From a virus, in IMG/VR virus record IMGVR_UViG_3300031857_016023, positions 59,822 to 123,821 of that record: DNA of 64,000 bases; one strand, 5' to 3'. Shown here piece after piece: positions 23,121-62,272 of the stretch (its first letter is position 1; each line of letters starts with the position of its first letter). The notes below the pieces were generated by a model, which was given only the letters and a program-made list of their open reading frames with translations, had not been told where the DNA came from and searched no databases. Made by a program: the position numbers and the translations under genes.

Positions 23121-24374
23121 TCAATAATACAAATTAGAAATAGCGGCAATTGTATTGTTTCCACTTAAATATGGTGTAAAAAGTTTTGAGCTGGAGATTG
23201 TACTCCATTTTCTGTCTGTGACTATTTGAACAGGAGAAGATACTCCTATTGCACCTCTTGTACCTTGTGGAGATTCTTGATTATTTCCAAATACTCCGGC
23301 TTCATTTCTTCCCCAAGCCCATAATGTTCCATCTTCTTTAAGAGCAAAAGAAGTATCTTGTGAAACGGAAATTTCTGTCCAATCACTTCTACTGGATATT
23401 TGTGTTGGAGAAGATCGTTGTGCTAAACCTAAGCCAGCTTCTGATCCAATTAAAGGCAAACCTAATTGTCCATAACCATTAGATCCCCAACCCCAAAGAG
23501 TTCCATCGGTTTTAATAGCTAAAAAATGTATGTCTGCTGCTAGCGAATTTGGCCCAGCAATTTTTTTCCAATTAGTTGAAGAATCGAATTGAACCGGAGA
23601 AGATCGGTCTACTTTTATTCCTAAACGCTCTTGAGTTTGGCCCCAAACCCAAAGAGTTCCGTCAACTTTAATAGCTGTCACTACATTTTGGCGTGAAGAA
23701 GGATTAACAAATTTCCAAGTCCTGTCTAATCCAATTTGAACTGGAGAAGATCGATGTAAAAGAACACCACTATTAATACCTAAAGTACCATAATCATTAG
23801 AACCCCAAGAGTATAATCTACCTTCATCTTTATCGCCTCTAATAGCAAATGTTGTATCTAATCCACAAACAACATATTTCCACCAAGTGTTTGATCCAAT
23901 TTGAACAGGAGAAGATACACTAATACTTATGCTAGTATTAGTTCCTAGTTGACCGTATTCATTTCTTCCCCAACTCCATAATGTTCCATCCGTTTTTACA
24001 GCGCTACTATGTGCATTACCAGCAGATATATGAGCCCAATTTGTATCAACTCCAATTTGAACAGGAGAAGATAAATTGATTGTTGTGCTATTTCCTAATT
24101 GGCCATATTCGTTTTTTCCCCAACTCCATAATGTTCCATCCGTTTTTAACGCTAAGGCATGACCAGATATATCAATTTCTTTCCAAAATTGGGAAGATTG
24201 TAATTGTACAGGTGATGATCTGGAAATTGTTGTTCCGTCACCAATAATACCAGATCTTCCGTCAGGTGAATTATCTCCCCAAATGAATATATGACCAAAT
24301 TTTGTTACCCTTTTTAAAATATTAGGTTTTAAAAATCTAGAAGTAACGTCTTTATTCCTCGATCTATATGTCAT
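23121..24374 (-). CDS. RCC1/BLIP-II repeat beta-propeller protein
   Basis: Repeats of KTDGTLWSWGxNEYGQLG...SSPVQIG. Confidence 0.88.
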   Translation of the reverse strand: MTYRSRNKDVTSRFLKPNILKRVTKFGHIFIWGDNSPDGRSGIIGDGTTISRSSPVQLQSSQFWKEIDISGHALALKTDGTLWSWGKNEYGQLGNSTTINLSSPVQIGVDTNWAHISAGNAHSSAVKTDGTLWSWGRNEYGQLGTNTSISISVSSPVQIGSNTWWKYVVCGLDTTFAIRGDKDEGRLYSWGSNDYGTLGINSGVLLHRSSPVQIGLDRTWKFVNPSSRQNVVTAIKVDGTLWVWGQTQERLGIKVDRSSPVQFDSSTNWKKIAGPNSLAADIHFLAIKTDGTLWGWGSNGYGQLGLPLIGSEAGLGLAQRSSPTQISSRSDWTEISVSQDTSFALKEDGTLWAWGRNEAGVFGNNQESPQGTRGAIGVSSPVQIVTDRKWSTISSSKLFTPYLSGNNTIAAISNLYY

Positions 24375-24380
24375 TTTGTT

Positions 24381-25607
24381 TTAACCAAAAAAAGTTTCAT
24401 CTTTTATACCAACAAATCCAGAAGCGACAGATGATACACTTACCCAATTATTGGCCCAATCAGTCCTGCTAGGATTCCACGAACCAAATAAAACAGGTGA
24501 ACTTTCTGGTCCTGTTACGCCGAGCCTATATCCGTTAAAAGGTACGTTACTGCCCCACCCCCAAAGAGTTCCATCCGCTTTGATAGCCATATTATAACGA
24601 AAAACTTCTACCCAATCGTTTGATGTTCCAATCTGTACCGGAGATGATTTTGCCGATCCAGTACCAGGCGGTTCATTTAAGAAACTTCCTCCCCAAGCCC
24701 ATAATGTTCCATCGGTTTTAACTGCTGTAGCGCTGATCTCTGATCTTATTACTGATTTCCAATTATTTTCTGTACCAAGTTGTACAGGTTCTCCCCGCGT
24801 ATCAGAATAACCGCTAGTAGAATTTCCAAACCCTCCGTAAAAATTTTGACCCCAAATCCAAAGAGTCCCATATCTATCAATTACAGCATAGGTGTCTACT
24901 AATTTACTCCAATCTCTGGATGATCCAATTTGGGTTGGAGAGGAAAATATTGTAATATTATTAATATCAATGCCCCATTTCCAAAGAGTTCCATCTGATT
25001 TGAGAGCAAACGCTCTGTGATTACCCTGATCAGATTTTACAGATACCCATTTATTATCTGTACCTATTTGTGTTGGAGAAGATACGTTGTTGGATAAAGA
25101 TCCAAAAGTAAAAGATGGTGGACCATAACCTAATTGGGCTCTATAATTATGCCCCCAAGACCAAAGAGTTCCATCGGTTTTAATAGCAAAGGTTGAATAT
25201 ATACTTCGTTCTACCATTAACCAGTTAGTATCTGCTCCAATTTGAGTAGGAGAAGATTTTCCTTGCAAGAAGTTTGATGTATTATCTCCAATTTGACCAT
25301 AATCGTTTGCACCCCAACCCCAAAGAGTTCCATCCGACTTAATAGCGTGAACACCTAAAGCATCACAAGAAATTGAAGCCCAACCAACTCCACTTCCAAG
25401 TAAAACGGCAGATGATCGATAAGTTTGATCATTAAGACCTAATTGGGCTCGATCATTTGCGCCTAAACCATAAAGATAACTTTGTAAAGGAAAATCTCTA
25501 ATATATCCATAGTTGTCAAATAATCTAGTCGTAGACACATATGATCCAAGTGAAGTATTGGATATATCTGTTGTGGTGCTATTTTGAGTAATGAGATAAT
25601 TAGTCAT
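24381..25607 (-). CDS. RCC1/BLIP-II repeat beta-propeller protein
   Basis: Repeats of K(S/T)DGTLWxWG...SSP(T/V)QIG. Confidence 0.88.
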   Translation of the reverse strand: MTNYLITQNSTTTDISNTSLGSYVSTTRLFDNYGYIRDFPLQSYLYGLGANDRAQLGLNDQTYRSSAVLLGSGVGWASISCDALGVHAIKSDGTLWGWGANDYGQIGDNTSNFLQGKSSPTQIGADTNWLMVERSIYSTFAIKTDGTLWSWGHNYRAQLGYGPPSFTFGSLSNNVSSPTQIGTDNKWVSVKSDQGNHRAFALKSDGTLWKWGIDINNITIFSSPTQIGSSRDWSKLVDTYAVIDRYGTLWIWGQNFYGGFGNSTSGYSDTRGEPVQLGTENNWKSVIRSEISATAVKTDGTLWAWGGSFLNEPPGTGSAKSSPVQIGTSNDWVEVFRYNMAIKADGTLWGWGSNVPFNGYRLGVTGPESSPVLFGSWNPSRTDWANNWVSVSSVASGFVGIKDETFFG

Positions 25608-25612
25608 TTGTA

Positions 25613-26830
25613 TTATTTAAAACCTGGATCTTTTAAAGCCAAAAAATTTACACTACCCGTCACGCCTGAGGCCGACTGGATTGTAGAAATCTTTCTAAAT
25701 CCAACATTTGATGTAACGGGTATTGGGGCAGTCGCATGAAGTGTCAAGAGTTGAACTGGAGATGATCGATAAGGAATCCATGTTCCGTCAGCTGTATTTG
25801 AAGGATTATAACTCCATGTGCCCCAAACCCAAAGAGTTCCATCTGATTTTATGCCCATACCGTGATTGCTACCAGAAAAAAACTTGTTTCCGCCAATTTC
25901 CACATATCTCCATGGAAGTTGACCATTACCTTGTCCAAGCACCTGAACAGGAGAGCTTCTAGAAATATTTGTACCATCACCAAGTTGTCCTACTGTATTA
26001 CTTCCCCAAGCCCATAATGTTCCATCGGTTTTAAATGCTGTAATTCCTCCAGAATTAACTGATCTCCAATTCGTGTTTGCTCCAATTTGAACGGGTGACG
26101 AATACTCTTTACCAAATGGAGAAGTTTCAGCCGGATTTAAACGAGCAGCGTTGCCCCATAACCAGAGAGTTCCATTTGATTTAATAGCTGCTCTAACAGA
26201 ACTAGAACTACTAATATATTTCCAATTTGTGTTTGTTCCAATTTGAACAGGAGAGCTTCTGGGAATTATCGTATTATCACCAACTTCACCATTAGAATTA
26301 AAGCCCCAAGACCAAAGAGTTCCATTATTTTTAAGGGCTAATCCATATTCTATTGCAAACCAATCATTTGAACTACCAATTTGAGTAGGAGAAGAACGAT
26401 CAATTAGGTCACCAAGACCTAGGCCACCAACATTATTAAGCCCCCAAGACCAAATAGTTCCATCAGTTTTAACAGCGTTAGCCACATAACTGAAAGCTGA
26501 AATTTTTTTCCAATTTCTGTTTGTTCCAATTTGAACTGGTGATGTAATATTTGTTCCTGGAGCACTTCCAGTATACCATTGTGGGTCATATCCGTAAGCC
26601 CATAATGTTCTATCCGATCTGATAAGAAAAGCATAATTTGAGCCTGGATCTCCCTCTATTTCTCTCCAAGAAGCTGAGTTTGCTGTTACATCATAAAATT
26701 TTTCTCCATTGCTATTTCTATTGTAATAATGCCATACTGTTCCACCAATGGTTATACTATCTAAAAATTCAAGATCGGTATCAATTGCATCGCTTAAAAG
26801 ATCTTGATCAGTATTAACTTTAAATACCAT
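25613..26830 (-). CDS. RCC1/BLIP-II repeat beta-propeller protein
   Basis: Repeats of KTDGT(L/I)WxWG...RSSPVQ. Confidence 0.88.
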   Translation of the reverse strand: MVFKVNTDQDLLSDAIDTDLEFLDSITIGGTVWHYYNRNSNGEKFYDVTANSASWREIEGDPGSNYAFLIRSDRTLWAYGYDPQWYTGSAPGTNITSPVQIGTNRNWKKISAFSYVANAVKTDGTIWSWGLNNVGGLGLGDLIDRSSPTQIGSSNDWFAIEYGLALKNNGTLWSWGFNSNGEVGDNTIIPRSSPVQIGTNTNWKYISSSSSVRAAIKSNGTLWLWGNAARLNPAETSPFGKEYSSPVQIGANTNWRSVNSGGITAFKTDGTLWAWGSNTVGQLGDGTNISRSSPVQVLGQGNGQLPWRYVEIGGNKFFSGSNHGMGIKSDGTLWVWGTWSYNPSNTADGTWIPYRSSPVQLLTLHATAPIPVTSNVGFRKISTIQSASGVTGSVNFLALKDPGFK

Positions 26831-60480: not shown

Positions 60481-60500
60481 AAGCGGGATTTCTCCCGCTT
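60481..60500. terminator. Hairpin between the small secreted-protein gene and acpS
   Basis: AAGCGGGA-TTTC-TCCCGCTT; weak T tract on the minus strand. Confidence 0.55.
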
Positions 60501-60506
60501 TCCTTT

Positions 60507-60665
60507 TTACTTCTTTTTTTCGTCTTTCTTCGCTTCAGCTTTTGGTGCATCTTTTTTAGCTTCAGCTTTTGGTGCGTCTTTCTTAGGCTCTTCTTTCTTA
60601 GCAGGTGCCTGTGCGAAAGCGGTTACTGCAAACAGCGATGCTGCGATAAGTGCTACTGACTTCAT
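60507..60665 (-). CDS. Small secreted Lys/Ala/Glu-rich protein (52 aa)
   Basis: Not in ORF track. MKSVALIAASLFAVTAFA-QAPAKKEEPKKDAPKAEAKKDAPKAEAKKDEKKK; AAGGAG RBS; AFA signal peptidase site. Confidence 0.85.
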   Translation of the reverse strand: MKSVALIAASLFAVTAFAQAPAKKEEPKKDAPKAEAKKDAPKAEAKKDEKKK

Positions 60666-60686
60666 AATATCTCCTTAATTAAGAAT

Positions 60687-60990
60687 GGTGATTGATTCTG
60701 TTGCCAAGTTCAATCACCGAAAACTCCGGTCAGCGTTTAGGCTGCCAGTGCAAATCTTTCATCGTTTGCATTTACTTATTTGATTATTACGCCTTATCTG
60801 GCGATTCTCCAATTGTCTATTTGCTACGCTGTCGAATCTATTTCAGGCCCATCAGAAGCATACTGCCTACACCCACTTACGATTGGCGTAACCAGCGGTA
60901 GTGCAAAACCTGCTCATGCGTTCTTACAGTATGCTTTTGGTGGACCTGACCGGTACTGCCCCGGTGTCCAACGCATCGTTCAACAATCTT
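60687..60990 (-). ncRNA. ssrA: Circularly permuted (two-piece) tmRNA gene; outer ends approximate
   Basis: T-arm and CAGGTCC-A-CCA end at 60938; 5' acceptor GGGCCTG...GATTCGAC starts at 60850; G3-U70 pair; tag ANDERFALAA* at 60769-60737. Confidence 0.93.
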
Positions 60991-61001
60991 CAACGAATTC
61001 T

Positions 61002-61316
61002 TTACTTCTTTGCCTTATACGGTTCCATTTTTGTGCCGGCCGCAATAACGCAATAGTTATCTTCATCAACTTTTTCAACCATAGTCCAACTTTTACTCTG
61101 AGGATTCAGAAATAGAAAAGTAGGATTATACTTCTTTCTATTGCCATCAACTCTGTGGCCTGTGGAGGTAAGAAAAGGCAATTCACCATATTCTTTTACT
61201 GTTCCGCTTATCGTTTTTAAATCAACACATAGTGCCTCAAATAAAACAATTTCACTATCACTAGCCATAGCCAACGCAGGAATAAACAATAGGGTTGACA
61301 GAAATTTGGCAAACAT
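61002..61316 (-). CDS. Hypothetical exported protein
   Basis: Signal-peptide-like N-terminus; YGELP and NPQSKSWTMVE...CVIAAG. Confidence 0.65.
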   Translation of the reverse strand: MFAKFLSTLLFIPALAMASDSEIVLFEALCVDLKTISGTVKEYGELPFLTSTGHRVDGNRKKYNPTFLFLNPQSKSWTMVEKVDEDNYCVIAAGTKMEPYKAKK

Positions 61317-61574: not shown

Positions 61575-61594
61575 TTTATGTACCCTTAAATTAT

Positions 61595-62272
61595 TTATAT
61601 TGCACCATTATACTTCAAAATATATTGTTGAAGAGGCAAAATATGATCTGCTTTGTTCTCAATGAAAATCAAAGGTATATTTGTATCTTCTACCGCAATG
61701 GCAACCACGATTTGTTTAATTGGCTTGCCTGTTCTTTCCTCAAACATTTCAGCGTATGCCGAGCATTGCATGAAATAGTTTTGTATATATTCTTTTTCTT
61801 TTACTCTTGTTGAAGTTTTCCAATCAACTATTGATAATTCGCCTTCCCATTCGGCGATACAATCACAACGGCCGGCGATCCCTAGTTTATCACTATACAA
61901 CGGTTGTTCAATACCATATATGTCGCCAATATGACTATCGAGAAATGGTTTCACTTTGAGAAATAGCTCTTTAGTGTCAGGCATCATCGTCTGCATTTTC
62001 ATATCAGACATTTCGTTTAAAAGATATTTCTCAACAGCGTTATGCAGTTTGGTACCACGACCAGATGCTGCACGGGAAATACGATTAGCTTCTTGTTCGC
62101 CAACTCTTTGGTGCCATTCATAGATTGCTTTTTTGTTATAATTGGATAGAACGGTTGTGATGGAGGGGTAGGACTTTCCTCCCGGTGTTTTATAAGTCCT
62201 ACCCGATTCTGTTGTTTCGGATTCTAATTCAAAGTCCAATTCACTTAATTTTACATGATTAAAAAATTTCAT
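61595..62272 (-). CDS. PD-(D/E)XK (Cas4-like) exonuclease
   Basis: YPSITTVL, RGTKLH, AGRCDCIA, IVDWKTS and YFMQCSAYA. Confidence 0.88.
   Translation of the reverse strand: MKFFNHVKLSELDFELESETTESGRTYKTPGGKSYPSITTVLSNYNKKAIYEWHQRVGEQEANRISRAASGRGTKLHNAVEKYLLNEMSDMKMQTMMPDTKELFLKVKPFLDSHIGDIYGIEQPLYSDKLGIAGRCDCIAEWEGELSIVDWKTSTRVKEKEYIQNYFMQCSAYAEMFEERTGKPIKQIVVAIAVEDTNIPLIFIENKADHILPLQQYILKYNGAI

What the first reader, a model, noticed from the sequence alone, without database searches (positions are those of the whole stretch)
60687..60990. Phage-borne circularly permuted tmRNA with an unusual feature mix
Seen on the minus strand, in order: T-stem ACCGG/CCGGT with loop GGCAGTA, then CAGGTCC-A-CCA; an 87-nt intervening segment; GGGCCTG...GATTCGAC (7-bp acceptor stem with the G3-U70 alanine determinant); the tag ANDERFALAA*; and a closing GGTGATTGA/TCAATCACC hairpin. 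Known: two-piece tmRNAs occur in Alphaproteobacteria, some marine cyanobacteria and a betaproteobacterial lineage. From recall, the GGCRGUA T-loop is alphaproteobacterial-like and the tag is betaproteobacterial-like. Inference: a phage lineage of compact tmRNA that sustains ribosome rescue during infection. No smpB is in the window.
Basis: partly seen in the sequence, partly recalled or inferred. Interest (0 to 1): 0.85.

Follow-up and report, generated by a model that had tools for sequence, protein, structure and literature searches.

The report
Two-piece tmRNA gene in freshwater phage
An uncultured T4-like lake phage carries a real, intact, back-to-front (two-piece) gene for tmRNA, the RNA that frees stalled ribosomes; such phage genes are already published, and this one belongs to a large phage-carried family in which its odd feature mix is common.

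Summary
Rfam's permuted-tmRNA model RF04321 scores 114.2 bits against a cut-off of 47. ARAGORN finds nothing.

The window is part of a 123.8-kb virus record with T4-type baseplate genes. The record has no SmpB and no integrase.

Phage two-piece tmRNAs are in print (Buchholz 2022, PMC9004378). Melnitz, HTVC008M and BUCT-ZZ01, the nearest cultured relatives, all carry one, and Melnitz and HTVC008M have it next to the same exonuclease gene.

The feature mix is real. The T-loop matches the alpha consensus. The tag ANDERFALAA is the tag of many Burkholderiales. The tRNA-like half scores best as alpha and the mRNA-like half as beta.

The mix is not unusual. At least 120 viral contigs carry ANDExFALAA tags, nearly all on permuted genes, with T-loops of TTC, TGC or GGC type. 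Modules recombine inside the gene.

Covariation supports every helix, and the tag changes mostly synonymously. Processing, charging and tagging are untested.

This scan has met this family before on other DNA.

Verdict: a new member of a known kind, of modest interest.

The parts
60938..60998 (-). Acceptor piece: 5' strands of the long P2 helix, the T-arm (60965-60949, loop GGCAGTA), the acceptor 3' half CAGGTCC, discriminator A and encoded CCA (60940-60938)
   Evidence: Read. RF04321 alignment model positions 1-64. T-stem and P2 pairs covary. Conservation among relatives starts near 61003.
60851..60937 (-). 87-nt intervening segment, presumably removed in maturation, closed by a 10-11 bp stem (AAGCATACTG / CAGTATGCTT)
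   Evidence: Fold (z -2.07). Helix 6 is paired in all 6 sequences, and 7 of its 10 pairs change on both sides. Its interior is replaced in L283, L387 and L285 while the stem is kept. Its length is ordinary: 4-277 nt in 117 parsed viral genes.
60685..60850 (-). Coding piece: acceptor 5' half GGGCCTG (60850-60844), D-loop-like AAATAGAT + TCGAC, 3' strands of P2, a hairpin CGCC/GGCG (60803-60790), the tag frame and the closing hairpin
   Evidence: Conservation among relatives stops just after 60687.
60737..60769 (-). Tag reading frame ANDERFALAA with stop codon
   Evidence: Relatives found without using the tag keep the peptide through mostly synonymous change. L282/L283 show 5 synonymous codon changes and one A>S. 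L084 shows 4 synonymous and one R>K. L005-7 show 2 synonymous and one R>K.
60687..60718 (-). Closing hairpin GGTGATTGA/TCAATCACC with loop ACTTGGCAACAGAA
   Evidence: Fold (z -2.55). 5 of 9 pairs change on both sides. The loop resembles ACCuGGCAACAGAA at the 3' end of the alpha_tmRNA consensus.
61592..61599 (-). TATAAATA, the only copy in the 64-kb window: candidate T4-type late promoter for the unit ORF84 - ORF104 - tmRNA - ORF52
   Evidence: 1 match, against 10.2 expected from shuffles. The position and strand fit the block. Promoter function is inferred.
60507..60665 (-). 52-codon ORF directly downstream, with an AAGGAG ribosome-binding site, a signal-peptide-like N-terminus and Lys/Ala/Glu-rich repeats. 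It is a neighbour and possibly co-transcribed, not part of the tmRNA
   Evidence: No PHROG match. The same downstream junction occurs in L285, L316, L315 and L319. Exact-match metatranscriptome contigs bridge it and the coding piece.
60481..60500 (-). Terminator-like hairpin at the end of the block
   Evidence: a consensus scan only.

Best explanation
This is a functional two-piece (circularly permuted) tmRNA gene of a lytic T4-like freshwater phage.

Proposed mechanism, all steps inferred:
1. The gene is transcribed as part of a longer RNA, probably from the late-type promoter at 61599-61592.
2. The precursor folds so that a conserved stem in the 87-nt spacer holds the two acceptor halves together.
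3. Host tRNA-processing enzymes cut 5' of G60850 and after CCA60938.
4. This leaves an acceptor piece of about 61 nt and a coding piece of about 166 nt, joined by the acceptor stem and the P2 helix.
5. Host AlaRS charges the RNA through G3-U70 and A73.
6. Host SmpB and EF-Tu deliver it to ribosomes stalled on broken mRNAs.
7. Translation resumes on GCA and adds ANDERFALAA, which marks the product for host ClpXP-type proteolysis.

Shown here: the gene's anatomy, family membership, helix covariation, coding-type selection on the tag, phage context, conserved genomic position, and membership of a large phage-borne family.

Within that family the T-loop/elbow design, the spacer, a PK1-region insert and the tag/3'-hairpin module vary and recombine. 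The window's 'alpha T-loop plus beta tag' is one state of that family.
For: **Family membership.** RF04321 scores 114.2 bits against a cut-off of 47. RF01850 scores 87.7 against 84, and RF01849 scores 74.6 against 50.

**Structure.** 94% of cells are paired, and 23 of 50 pairs change on both sides. No helix is contradicted.

**Tag selection.** Codon changes in relatives that were found by their T-arm, not by their tag, are mostly synonymous. L282/L283 have 5 synonymous and 1 A>S. L084 has 4 synonymous and R>K. L005-7 have 2 synonymous and R>K.

**Phage context.** The window holds baseplate wedge genes (phrog_219, E 1.6e-162). The nearest cultured relatives by the gp6-like protein, at 39-40% identity, are BUCT-ZZ01, HTVC008M and Melnitz. 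All three carry RF04321 matches of 111.9, 90.6 and 113.4 bits.

**Conserved position.** A homologue of the exonuclease gene at 61595-62272 lies in 11 of the 13 loci compared, including Melnitz and HTVC008M. It also lies in 61 of 123 loci of the tag family.

**Only phage contexts found.** Of 8 metagenome contigs with the identical T-arm, 4 show the same neighbour genes and a fifth the same gene. None shows a bacterial context.

**Size of the family.** ARAGORN of 123 loci permuted and 2 standard.

**Recombination inside the gene.** Spacer type and 3'-hairpin type occur in all four combinations: window S1/H1, L282 S1/H2, L283 S2/H2, L387 S2/H1.

**Weak hint of expression.** Exact-match contigs from metatranscriptome runs cover 60706-60834 (X15) and 60593-60795 (X17). 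A third run from another study covers 60520-60777 with 6 differences.

**Not an integration remnant.** The record has no integrase, and the gene is full length.
Against: - No experiment or read-level datum shows processing, charging or tagging. The RNA runs are contigs, cannot show ends, and may contain DNA.
- No SmpB is encoded in the 69%-complete record, so function depends on an unidentified host's SmpB.
- The T-loop GGCAGTA, combined with a D-loop-like segment that lacks GG (AAATAGAT), is a minority design. It occurs in 18 of 108 GGC-type genes parsed. If the host is a Burkholderiales bacterium, it differs from that host's own tmRNA: 0 of 401 sampled genomes of that order have such a T-arm.
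- No sigma-70-type promoter stands out near the gene: 5 sites found against 4.3 expected.
- ARAGORN does not recognise the gene.
- The covariation test rests on 6 sequences and a structure derived from the window.
Confidence: 0.8

Rival explanations
1. Evolutionary chimera. The gene arose by recombination between an alpha-type phage tmRNA (as in Melnitz or the L034-type, at the same genomic position) and a beta-type one. On this view the tRNA-like domain truly descends from the alphaproteobacterial lineage and the mRNA-like domain from the betaproteobacterial lineage.
For: - Half-gene scoring: the tRNA-like half 60806-61040 scores best as alpha (51.2 bits), and the mRNA-like half 60650-60805 scores best as beta (48.4 bits).
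- Controls are consistent. Accumulibacter scores beta/beta (92.5/107). L034 scores alpha/alpha (78.2/58.2). Melnitz scores alpha/alpha (64.9/34.7).
- Recombination inside the gene is demonstrated among close relatives.
- Alpha-type and beta-like genes sit at the same syntenic position.
- The 3' hairpin loop resembles the alpha consensus.
Against: - L315 has nearly the window's tRNA-like half but a TGCGATT loop, and it scores best as beta (51.4). L319 has the same loop and scores best as alpha (56.3). Scores for this half lie at 44-59 bits either way, so the half is ambiguous and the call leans on the 7-nt loop.
- The D-loop-like segment AAATAGAT is not the usual alpha-type AAATAGGA. It resembles that of the TGC-loop genes.
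- Only the best model of the clan is reported, so the margins between models are unknown.
Confidence: 0.25
2. Decoy. The RNA does not tag proteins. Instead it titrates host SmpB or otherwise blocks host trans-translation. This was proposed for the tRNA-like-domain-only molecule of mycobacteriophage DS6A (PMC4131195 and PMC11915505, passages read).
For: - The phage record has no SmpB of its own.
- The elbow design is non-canonical.
- There is a precedent in print.
Against: - The complete tag frame is kept under coding-type selection, with an Ala resume codon and an ALAA end.
- The mRNA-like domain and its closing hairpin are conserved with compensatory changes.
- A decoy would not need any of these.
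Confidence: 0.07
3. Passenger or remnant. The gene is a recently captured host gene, or a leftover of integration into a host ssrA, with no role for the phage.
For: - tmRNA genes are common integration sites, and prophages can carry fragments of them (stated in PMC9004378 and PMC4131195, passages read).
- The tag equals that of many Burkholderiales.
Against: - The gene is full length.
- No integrase is found, and the phage is of the lytic T4 type.
- No bacterial context was found for this gene.
- Bacterial genes with the same tag resemble it only across the tag region, about 45-55 nt at about 80% identity. All 101 T-loops I could parse in them are TTCRAWT.
- The gene has a conserved position across many divergent phages.
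Confidence: 0.04

Closest known systems
Two-piece tmRNA (ssrA) of Methylophilales phage Melnitz and related pelagimyophages (Buchholz et al. 2022, PMC9004378)
   Same: - T4-like aquatic myophage group, 39-40% identity in the gp6-like protein.
- A permuted tmRNA; Melnitz scores 113.4 bits on RF04321.
- The same position downstream of the exonuclease gene.
- A GGCAGTA T-loop in Melnitz.
- The paper reports 17 of 47 Melnitz-like contigs with permuted tmRNA, and an alpha-like gene in a phage whose host is not an alphaproteobacterium.
   Different: - Melnitz has a longer alpha-type tag, ANDNYVPVDYALAA.
- Its mRNA-like half scores best as alpha.
- It carries a glutamine riboswitch in its 3' part (RF01739, 52.8 bits).
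- The window has a 10-residue Burkholderiales-type tag, an mRNA-like half that scores best as beta, and no riboswitch match.
- ARAGORN finds Melnitz's gene but not this one.
Betaproteobacterial two-piece tmRNA (Rfam RF01850; Sharkady and Williams 2004, seen only as a reference cited in PMC9004378)
   Same: - Identical tag ANDERFALAA in Accumulibacter and Methyloversatilis genomes, which have permuted genes.
- The whole gene passes the RF01850 cut-off, 87.7 against 84.
- The mRNA-like half scores best as beta.
   Different: - True members score far higher: 149-156 bits on RF04321, and 92.5 and 107 bits per half on RF01850.
- They have a TTCGATT T-loop and, in the Accumulibacter gene, a 4-nt spacer.
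- The window has GGCAGTA, a D-like segment without GG, and an 87-nt stem-closed spacer.
Alphaproteobacterial two-piece tmRNA (Rfam RF01849; Keiler et al. 2000, seen only as a reference cited in PMC9004378)
   Same: - T-loop GGCRGUA.
- A 3' hairpin loop similar to ACCuGGCAACAGAA.
- The gene passes the RF01849 cut-off, 74.6 against 50.
   Different: - The score is low for a member. Alpha-type viral loci reach 129-150 bits.
- The D-like segment is AAATAGAT, not AAATAGGA.
- The tag is short and of the beta type.
- The mRNA-like half does not score best as alpha.
Unannotated permuted tmRNA of Synechococcus phage BUCT-ZZ01 (ON615601.1)
   Same: - It is the only record of the phage collection that the window's gene matches by blastn: 72% identity over the mRNA-like part.
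- It has a similar 3' hairpin loop.
- It scores 111.9 bits on RF04321.
- It is a related myophage.
   Different: - It has a standard TTCGACT T-loop and the tag ANDETFSMALAA.
- Both of its halves score best as beta.
- No feature is annotated at that place in the record.

Membership tests
tmRNA, circularly permuted (two-piece) form (Rfam RF04321) | Score at or above the family's gathering threshold | tested here: met
   114.2 bits against 47, E 1.5e-21, full model 1-213.
tmRNA, circularly permuted (two-piece) form (Rfam RF04321) | tRNA-Ala-like acceptor: 7-bp stem with G3-U70, discriminator A and CCA end | tested here: met
   GGGCCTG pairs with CAGGTCC, followed by A and CCA. The acceptor pairs are 100% paired in 6 sequences, and 2 of them change on both sides.
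tmRNA, circularly permuted (two-piece) form (Rfam RF04321) | Permuted gene order: T-arm and acceptor 3' half upstream of the acceptor 5' half, separated by an intervening segment | tested here: met
   CCA ends at 60938 and G1 is at 60850 on the minus strand. The spacer is 87 nt.
tmRNA, circularly permuted (two-piece) form (Rfam RF04321) | Tag reading frame with an Ala resume codon, a hydrophobic ALAA end and a stop, kept as a coding sequence | tested here: met
   ANDERFALAA*. Change in independently found relatives is mostly synonymous.
tmRNA, circularly permuted (two-piece) form (Rfam RF04321) | Pseudoknot PK1 upstream of the tag | tested here: inconclusive
   The hairpin CGCC/GGCG at 60803-60790 matches the model's hairpin and has counterparts in relatives. 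I did not resolve a second pseudoknot stem.
tmRNA, circularly permuted (two-piece) form (Rfam RF04321) | Maturation into two base-paired RNA pieces | tested here: inconclusive
   Only contigs of RNA runs were available, and they cannot show ends. The conserved, covarying spacer stem fits a processing substrate.
tmRNA, circularly permuted (two-piece) form (Rfam RF04321) | Alanylation, SmpB binding and trans-translation activity | not testable with these tools
   This needs biochemistry or genetics. No SmpB is encoded in the record.
Betaproteobacterial two-piece tmRNA (RF01850) | Gathering threshold, and a beta-type tRNA-like domain with a UUCGAUU T-loop | tested here: not met
   The threshold is barely passed, 87.7 against 84. 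The T-loop is GGCAGTA, and the tRNA-like half scores best as alpha. 0 of 401 sampled genomes of the order have such a T-arm.
Betaproteobacterial two-piece tmRNA (RF01850) | Beta-type mRNA-like domain and tag | tested here: met
   The mRNA-like half scores best as beta, 48.4 bits. The tag is identical to that of many Burkholderiales.
Alphaproteobacterial two-piece tmRNA (RF01849) | GGCRGUA T-loop and gathering threshold | tested here: met
   GGCAGTA against consensus GGCgGUA. 74.6 bits against 50.
Alphaproteobacterial two-piece tmRNA (RF01849) | Alpha-type D-like segment (AAATAGGA class) and alpha-type mRNA-like domain | tested here: not met
   The D-like segment is AAATAGAT. 18 of 108 GGC-type viral genes lack GG there. 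The mRNA-like half scores best as beta.
Melnitz-type phage ssrA locus (Buchholz 2022) | Permuted tmRNA in a T4-like aquatic myophage, at the position downstream of the exonuclease gene | tested here: met
Melnitz-type phage ssrA locus (Buchholz 2022) | Glutamine riboswitch in the 3' part of the gene | tested here: not met
   RF01739 is found in Melnitz at 52.8 bits. It is not found in the window at the gathering threshold, nor at E up to 1 on 60650-60805. The paper itself says the riboswitch is not a defining feature.

The most novel reading that the evidence does not exclude
The gene is one member of a large, mostly unannotated family of two-piece tmRNAs carried by freshwater phages. On this reading the family evolves by exchanging modules inside the gene: the T-arm/elbow design, the spacer, a PK1-region insert, and the tag plus 3' hairpin.

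The tag peptide ANDExFALAA stays fixed by selection and matches the degradation tag of Burkholderiales-type hosts.

The GGCAGUA loop would then not be a mark of alphaproteobacterial descent. It would be one of three interchangeable elbow designs that co-vary with the D-like segment: TTC loop with GG, TGC loop without GG, GGC loop with or without GG. If so, phages would tolerate or exploit different elbow designs with the same host SmpB.

Annotation based on ARAGORN under-counts the GGC class.
Probability: 0.35. Interest if true: 0.5.

Novelty: new member of a known kind. Interest (0 to 1): 0.33.

Why it matters
It adds a freshwater member to the published class of phage-encoded two-piece tmRNAs.

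Three points could matter to tmRNA and phage annotators if a full census confirms them:

- ARAGORN, which the published phage census used, detects only 10 of 24 family members with GGC-type T-loops. It detects 52 of 58 with TTC-type and 22 of 24 with TGC-type loops. Such genes are therefore under-counted.
- T-loop type and the D-like segment co-vary across 164 distinct viral genes. The T-loop can differ between nearly identical backbones, as in the window and L315. A lineage label drawn from the T-loop is therefore unsafe.
- Modules recombine inside the gene.

The tag alone does not name the host.

Tried and rejected
**Checks that led nowhere or went against an idea**

- ARAGORN on the window and on the whole record found 0 genes. 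It is not evidence against the gene, because ARAGORN misses most GGC-loop members of the family.
- The spacer length is not unusual. 87 nt lies inside the range of 4-277 nt.
- A protein gene inside the spacer, a lead from earlier notes, is not supported. There is a 16-codon ATG frame, but 500 of 5000 shuffles have one at least as long. L315's copy has two amino-acid changes and an early stop.
- No sigma-70 promoter stands out next to the gene: 5 sites against 4.3 expected.
- No bacterial donor was found. Bacterial genes with the same tag match only across the tag region. No bacterial context turned up in the metagenome scan.
- Host assignment was not achieved. The tag is shared by many Burkholderiales genera. 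The tags of Melnitz, HTVC008M and BUCT-ZZ01 could not be compared with their hosts' tags, because I could not fetch those hosts.
- RNA evidence: the four metatranscriptome runs laid are contigs. No exact-match contig covers the tRNA-like part, the spacer or the acceptor piece. That is no evidence about processing or expression either way. Short pieces from run X16 at 60866-60902 and 60932-60971 have 3 mismatches each and probably come from other organisms.
- Literature searches for prior descriptions of chimeric or freshwater phage two-piece tmRNAs returned nothing beyond Buchholz 2022. I looked at listings only, except for the three papers named under Papers. The library lacks most subscription journals.

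**Papers**

- PMC9004378: passages read.
- PMC11915505: passages read.
- PMC4131195: passages read.
- Supplements are closed. Table S1 of PMC9004378 (the list of 53 two-piece phage tmRNAs) and the 79 phage sequences of PMC11915505 could hold members of this family, and I could not check them.
- Keiler 2000 and Sharkady and Williams 2004 were seen only as references cited in PMC9004378.

**Limits of my own counts**

- My classification of 'permuted' genes is a parser of my own. It agrees with ARAGORN for 84 of 106 genes and has no independent check for the other 22.
- In one search the ARAGORN counts (94 standard, 13 permuted) add up to more than the 102 loci with a call, because some loci have two calls.
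- Only 80 of the 120 record titles were shown.
Full report
**1. The observation**

Read on the minus strand, the window holds these elements in order:
- a T-arm, stem ACCGG/CCGGT with loop GGCAGTA, at 60965-60949;
- CAGGTCC, A and CCA, ending at 60938;
- an 87-nt segment, 60937-60851;
- GGGCCTG at 60850-60844, which pairs with CAGGTCC over seven pairs, with G3 opposite U;
- the motif GATTCGAC;
- a frame GCA...TAA at 60769-60737 that reads ANDERFALAA*;
- a hairpin GGTGATTGA/TCAATCACC at 60718-60687.

Rfam's general model for permuted tmRNA (RF04321) matches 60998-60737 with 114.2 bits (cut-off 47, E 1.5e-21). The betaproteobacterial model RF01850 matches with 87.7 bits (cut-off 84). Scored one at a time, the alpha model gives 74.6 bits (cut-off 50) and the cyanobacterial model gives 31 (cut-off 70). 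ARAGORN reports nothing in the window or in the whole record.

**2. Context**

The window is the last 64 kb of a 123,821-b virus record, linear and 69% complete by CheckV.
- It encodes T4-type baseplate wedge proteins (phrog_219, E 1.6e-162; phrog_438).
- By its gp6-like protein, the nearest cultured phages are Synechococcus phage BUCT-ZZ01, Pelagibacter phage HTVC008M and Methylophilales phage Melnitz. Identity is only 39-40%.
- The record has no SmpB, no integrase and no tRNA gene by ARAGORN.
- DNA runs labelled freshwater, lake or aquaculture hold 90% or more of the sampled words of the stretch. There are 14 such runs, from about ten coded studies, some of which may be the source.

**3. What is in print**

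Buchholz et al. 2022 (PMC9004378, passages read) describe a two-piece tmRNA in Melnitz.
- They count 53 two-piece forms among 133 unique phage tmRNAs found with ARAGORN, 50 of them aquatic.
- They find permuted tmRNA in 17 of 47 Melnitz-like contigs.
- They note that Melnitz's gene looks alphaproteobacterial although its host is not an alphaproteobacterium.

The 2025 tmRNA database paper (PMC11915505, passages) lists 79 phage sequences and introduces RF04321. The 2014 survey (PMC4131195, passages) knew only mycobacteriophage and phage G genes. A phage-borne two-piece tmRNA is therefore a known kind.

I confirmed RF04321 matches in Melnitz (113.4 bits), BUCT-ZZ01 (111.9 bits, not annotated in the record) and HTVC008M (90.6 bits).

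**4. The gene is real and under selection**

Close relatives were found by the exact T-arm in 4 viral contigs and 8 metagenome contigs.
- Conservation starts near 61003 and stops just after 60687, while the flanks are unrelated. This delimits the gene.
- On a six-sequence alignment, my structure of 50 pairs has 94% standard pairs, against 29-42% for slid partners. 23 pairs change on both sides, and 0 of 500 shuffles reach the observed values.
- The stem that closes the spacer is paired in all six sequences, and 7 of its 10 pairs covary. The closing hairpin has 5 of 9 pairs covarying.
- The tag behaves as a coding sequence in relatives that were not found through the tag. L282/L283 have five synonymous codon changes and one A>S. 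L084 has four synonymous changes and R>K. L005-7 have two synonymous changes and R>K.

**5. Conserved position**

A homologue of the exonuclease gene at 61595-62272 (phrog_298) lies in 11 of the 13 loci compared: L008, L005-7, L084, L015, L088, L101, L040, Melnitz and HTVC008M. It also lies in 61 of 123 loci of the tag family.

Between the window and L005-7 the flanking proteins are 35-83% identical, yet the tmRNA gene is 94% identical in nucleotides, spacer included.

Of the 8 metagenome contigs, 4 share the window's neighbour genes and a fifth shares the gene. None shows a bacterial context.

**6. The 'feature mix'**

- The alpha consensus T-loop is GGCgGUA, and the beta consensus is UUCGAUU.
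Nearly all of the 80 titles shown are Burkholderiales or other betaproteobacteria.
- ARAGORN of those genes standard and 13 permuted. All 101 T-loops parsed are TTCRAWT, and the genes resemble the phage gene only across the tag.
- 0 of 401 sampled genomes of that order have the alpha-type T-arm.

Scoring the halves separately, the window's tRNA-like half is best matched by the alpha model (51.2 bits) and the mRNA-like half by the beta model (48.4 bits). The controls behave as expected: Accumulibacter beta/beta, L034 alpha/alpha, Melnitz alpha/alpha.

The same split appears in L084, L015, L088, L101, L285, L325 and L319.

L315 has almost the window's acceptor stem and spacer but a TGCGATT loop, and it flips to beta/beta. 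The tRNA-like half is therefore ambiguous, scoring 44-59 bits either way, and the label leans on the loop. The mRNA-like half is beta-best in all 10 family members tested.

**7. A large family with shuffled modules**

- ARAGORN of 123 loci permuted and 2 standard. My parser permuted.
- Their T-loops include TTCGATT (26), TTCGACT (23), TGCGAAT (17), GGCAGTG (9), GGCAGTA (8) and GGCGGTA (3).
- ARAGORN detects 52 of 58 TTC-type genes, 22 of 24 TGC-type genes and only 10 of 24 GGC-type genes. This explains why it misses the window's gene.
- Among close relatives, spacer type and 3'-hairpin type occur in all four combinations: window S1/H1, L282 S1/H2, L283 S2/H2, L387 S2/H1. L319 joins another acceptor stem and spacer to the window's tag and hairpin. 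This shows recombination inside the gene.
- Across 164 distinct viral permuted genes, T-loop class co-varies with the D-like segment. TTC loops always come with GG (39 of 39). TGC loops almost never do (1 of 17). GGC loops mostly come with GG (90 of 108).
- The window belongs to the 18 GGC-loop genes without GG (AAATAGAT), a segment like that of the TGC class.

**8. Transcription and expression**

- TATAAATA occurs once in the window, against 10.2 expected. It lies at 61599-61592 on the gene's strand, ahead of two small ORFs, the tmRNA and a 52-codon ORF.
- A terminator-like hairpin lies at 60500-60481.
- Exact-match contigs from metatranscriptome runs cover 60706-60834 and 60593-60795. They bridge the coding piece and the downstream ORF. 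These are contigs, so they show neither RNA ends nor transcription as such.

**9. Mechanism and verdict**

The best reading, at confidence 0.8, is a working two-piece tmRNA. The precursor is held together by the spacer stem, host tRNA-processing enzymes cut it, host AlaRS charges it, and host SmpB delivers it. It then adds ANDERFALAA to the products of stalled ribosomes. All of these steps are inferred from the anatomy and the family.

The rivals are a true alpha-by-beta chimera (a question of origin, 0.25), an SmpB decoy (0.07) and a captured passenger gene (0.04).

The gene is a new member of a known kind.

**10. Earlier notes of this scan**

Similar genes were noted before on other DNA. One follow-up (e1-5652319) reached the same view of a large phage-carried beta-type branch that does not name the host. 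I then tested two leads from the notes. The late-promoter lead found a candidate at 61599-61592. The spacer-gene lead found no support in this window.

Noticed in passing
window 60507-60665 (-): A 52-codon ORF lies directly after the tmRNA. It has a strong ribosome-binding site, a signal-peptide-like start and Lys/Ala/Glu-rich repeats, and no PHROG match. The same downstream junction follows the tmRNA in L285, L316, L315 and L319. RNA-run contigs bridge it and the coding piece.
   Followed up: partly
window 60851-60937 (-) compared with L005, L282, L315: The 87-nt spacer, which should be discarded, is identical or nearly so in phages whose flanking proteins are only 35-83% identical. This suggests recent exchange of the cassette or a function of its own. 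Its 16-codon frame gets no support as a gene.
   Followed up: partly
window, whole 64 kb: TATAAATA is strongly depleted: 1 copy against 10.2 expected, and all 100 shuffles have at least one. The single copy is at 61599-61592 (-). This T4-like phage may use a variant late-promoter motif.
   Followed up: no
L009 / ON615601.1 116826-117259: The public record of Synechococcus phage BUCT-ZZ01 has an unannotated permuted tmRNA (RF04321 111.9 bits, tag ANDETFSMALAA) among its tRNA genes.
   Followed up: yes
L084 2330-2420: The spacer of this relative's tmRNA contains a GGTTCGAATCC motif, a canonical tRNA T-arm-like sequence, inside the stem-closed segment.
   Followed up: no
164 viral permuted tmRNA genes (loci L005-L130, L285-L402): T-loop class co-varies with the D-loop-like segment. 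TTC loops come with GG in 39 of 39 genes, TGC loops in 1 of 17, and GGC loops in 90 of 108. This suggests alternative elbow designs.
   Followed up: partly
window 23121-26830 (-): Three consecutive genes of about 410 codons each match RCC1-repeat ('regulator of chromosome condensation') PHROGs, inside the tail-fibre region.
   Followed up: no
L260 135-183 (Melnitz, MZ577097.1): The published glutamine riboswitch in the 3' part of Melnitz's ssrA is confirmed (RF01739, 52.8 bits). The window has nothing comparable.
   Followed up: yes
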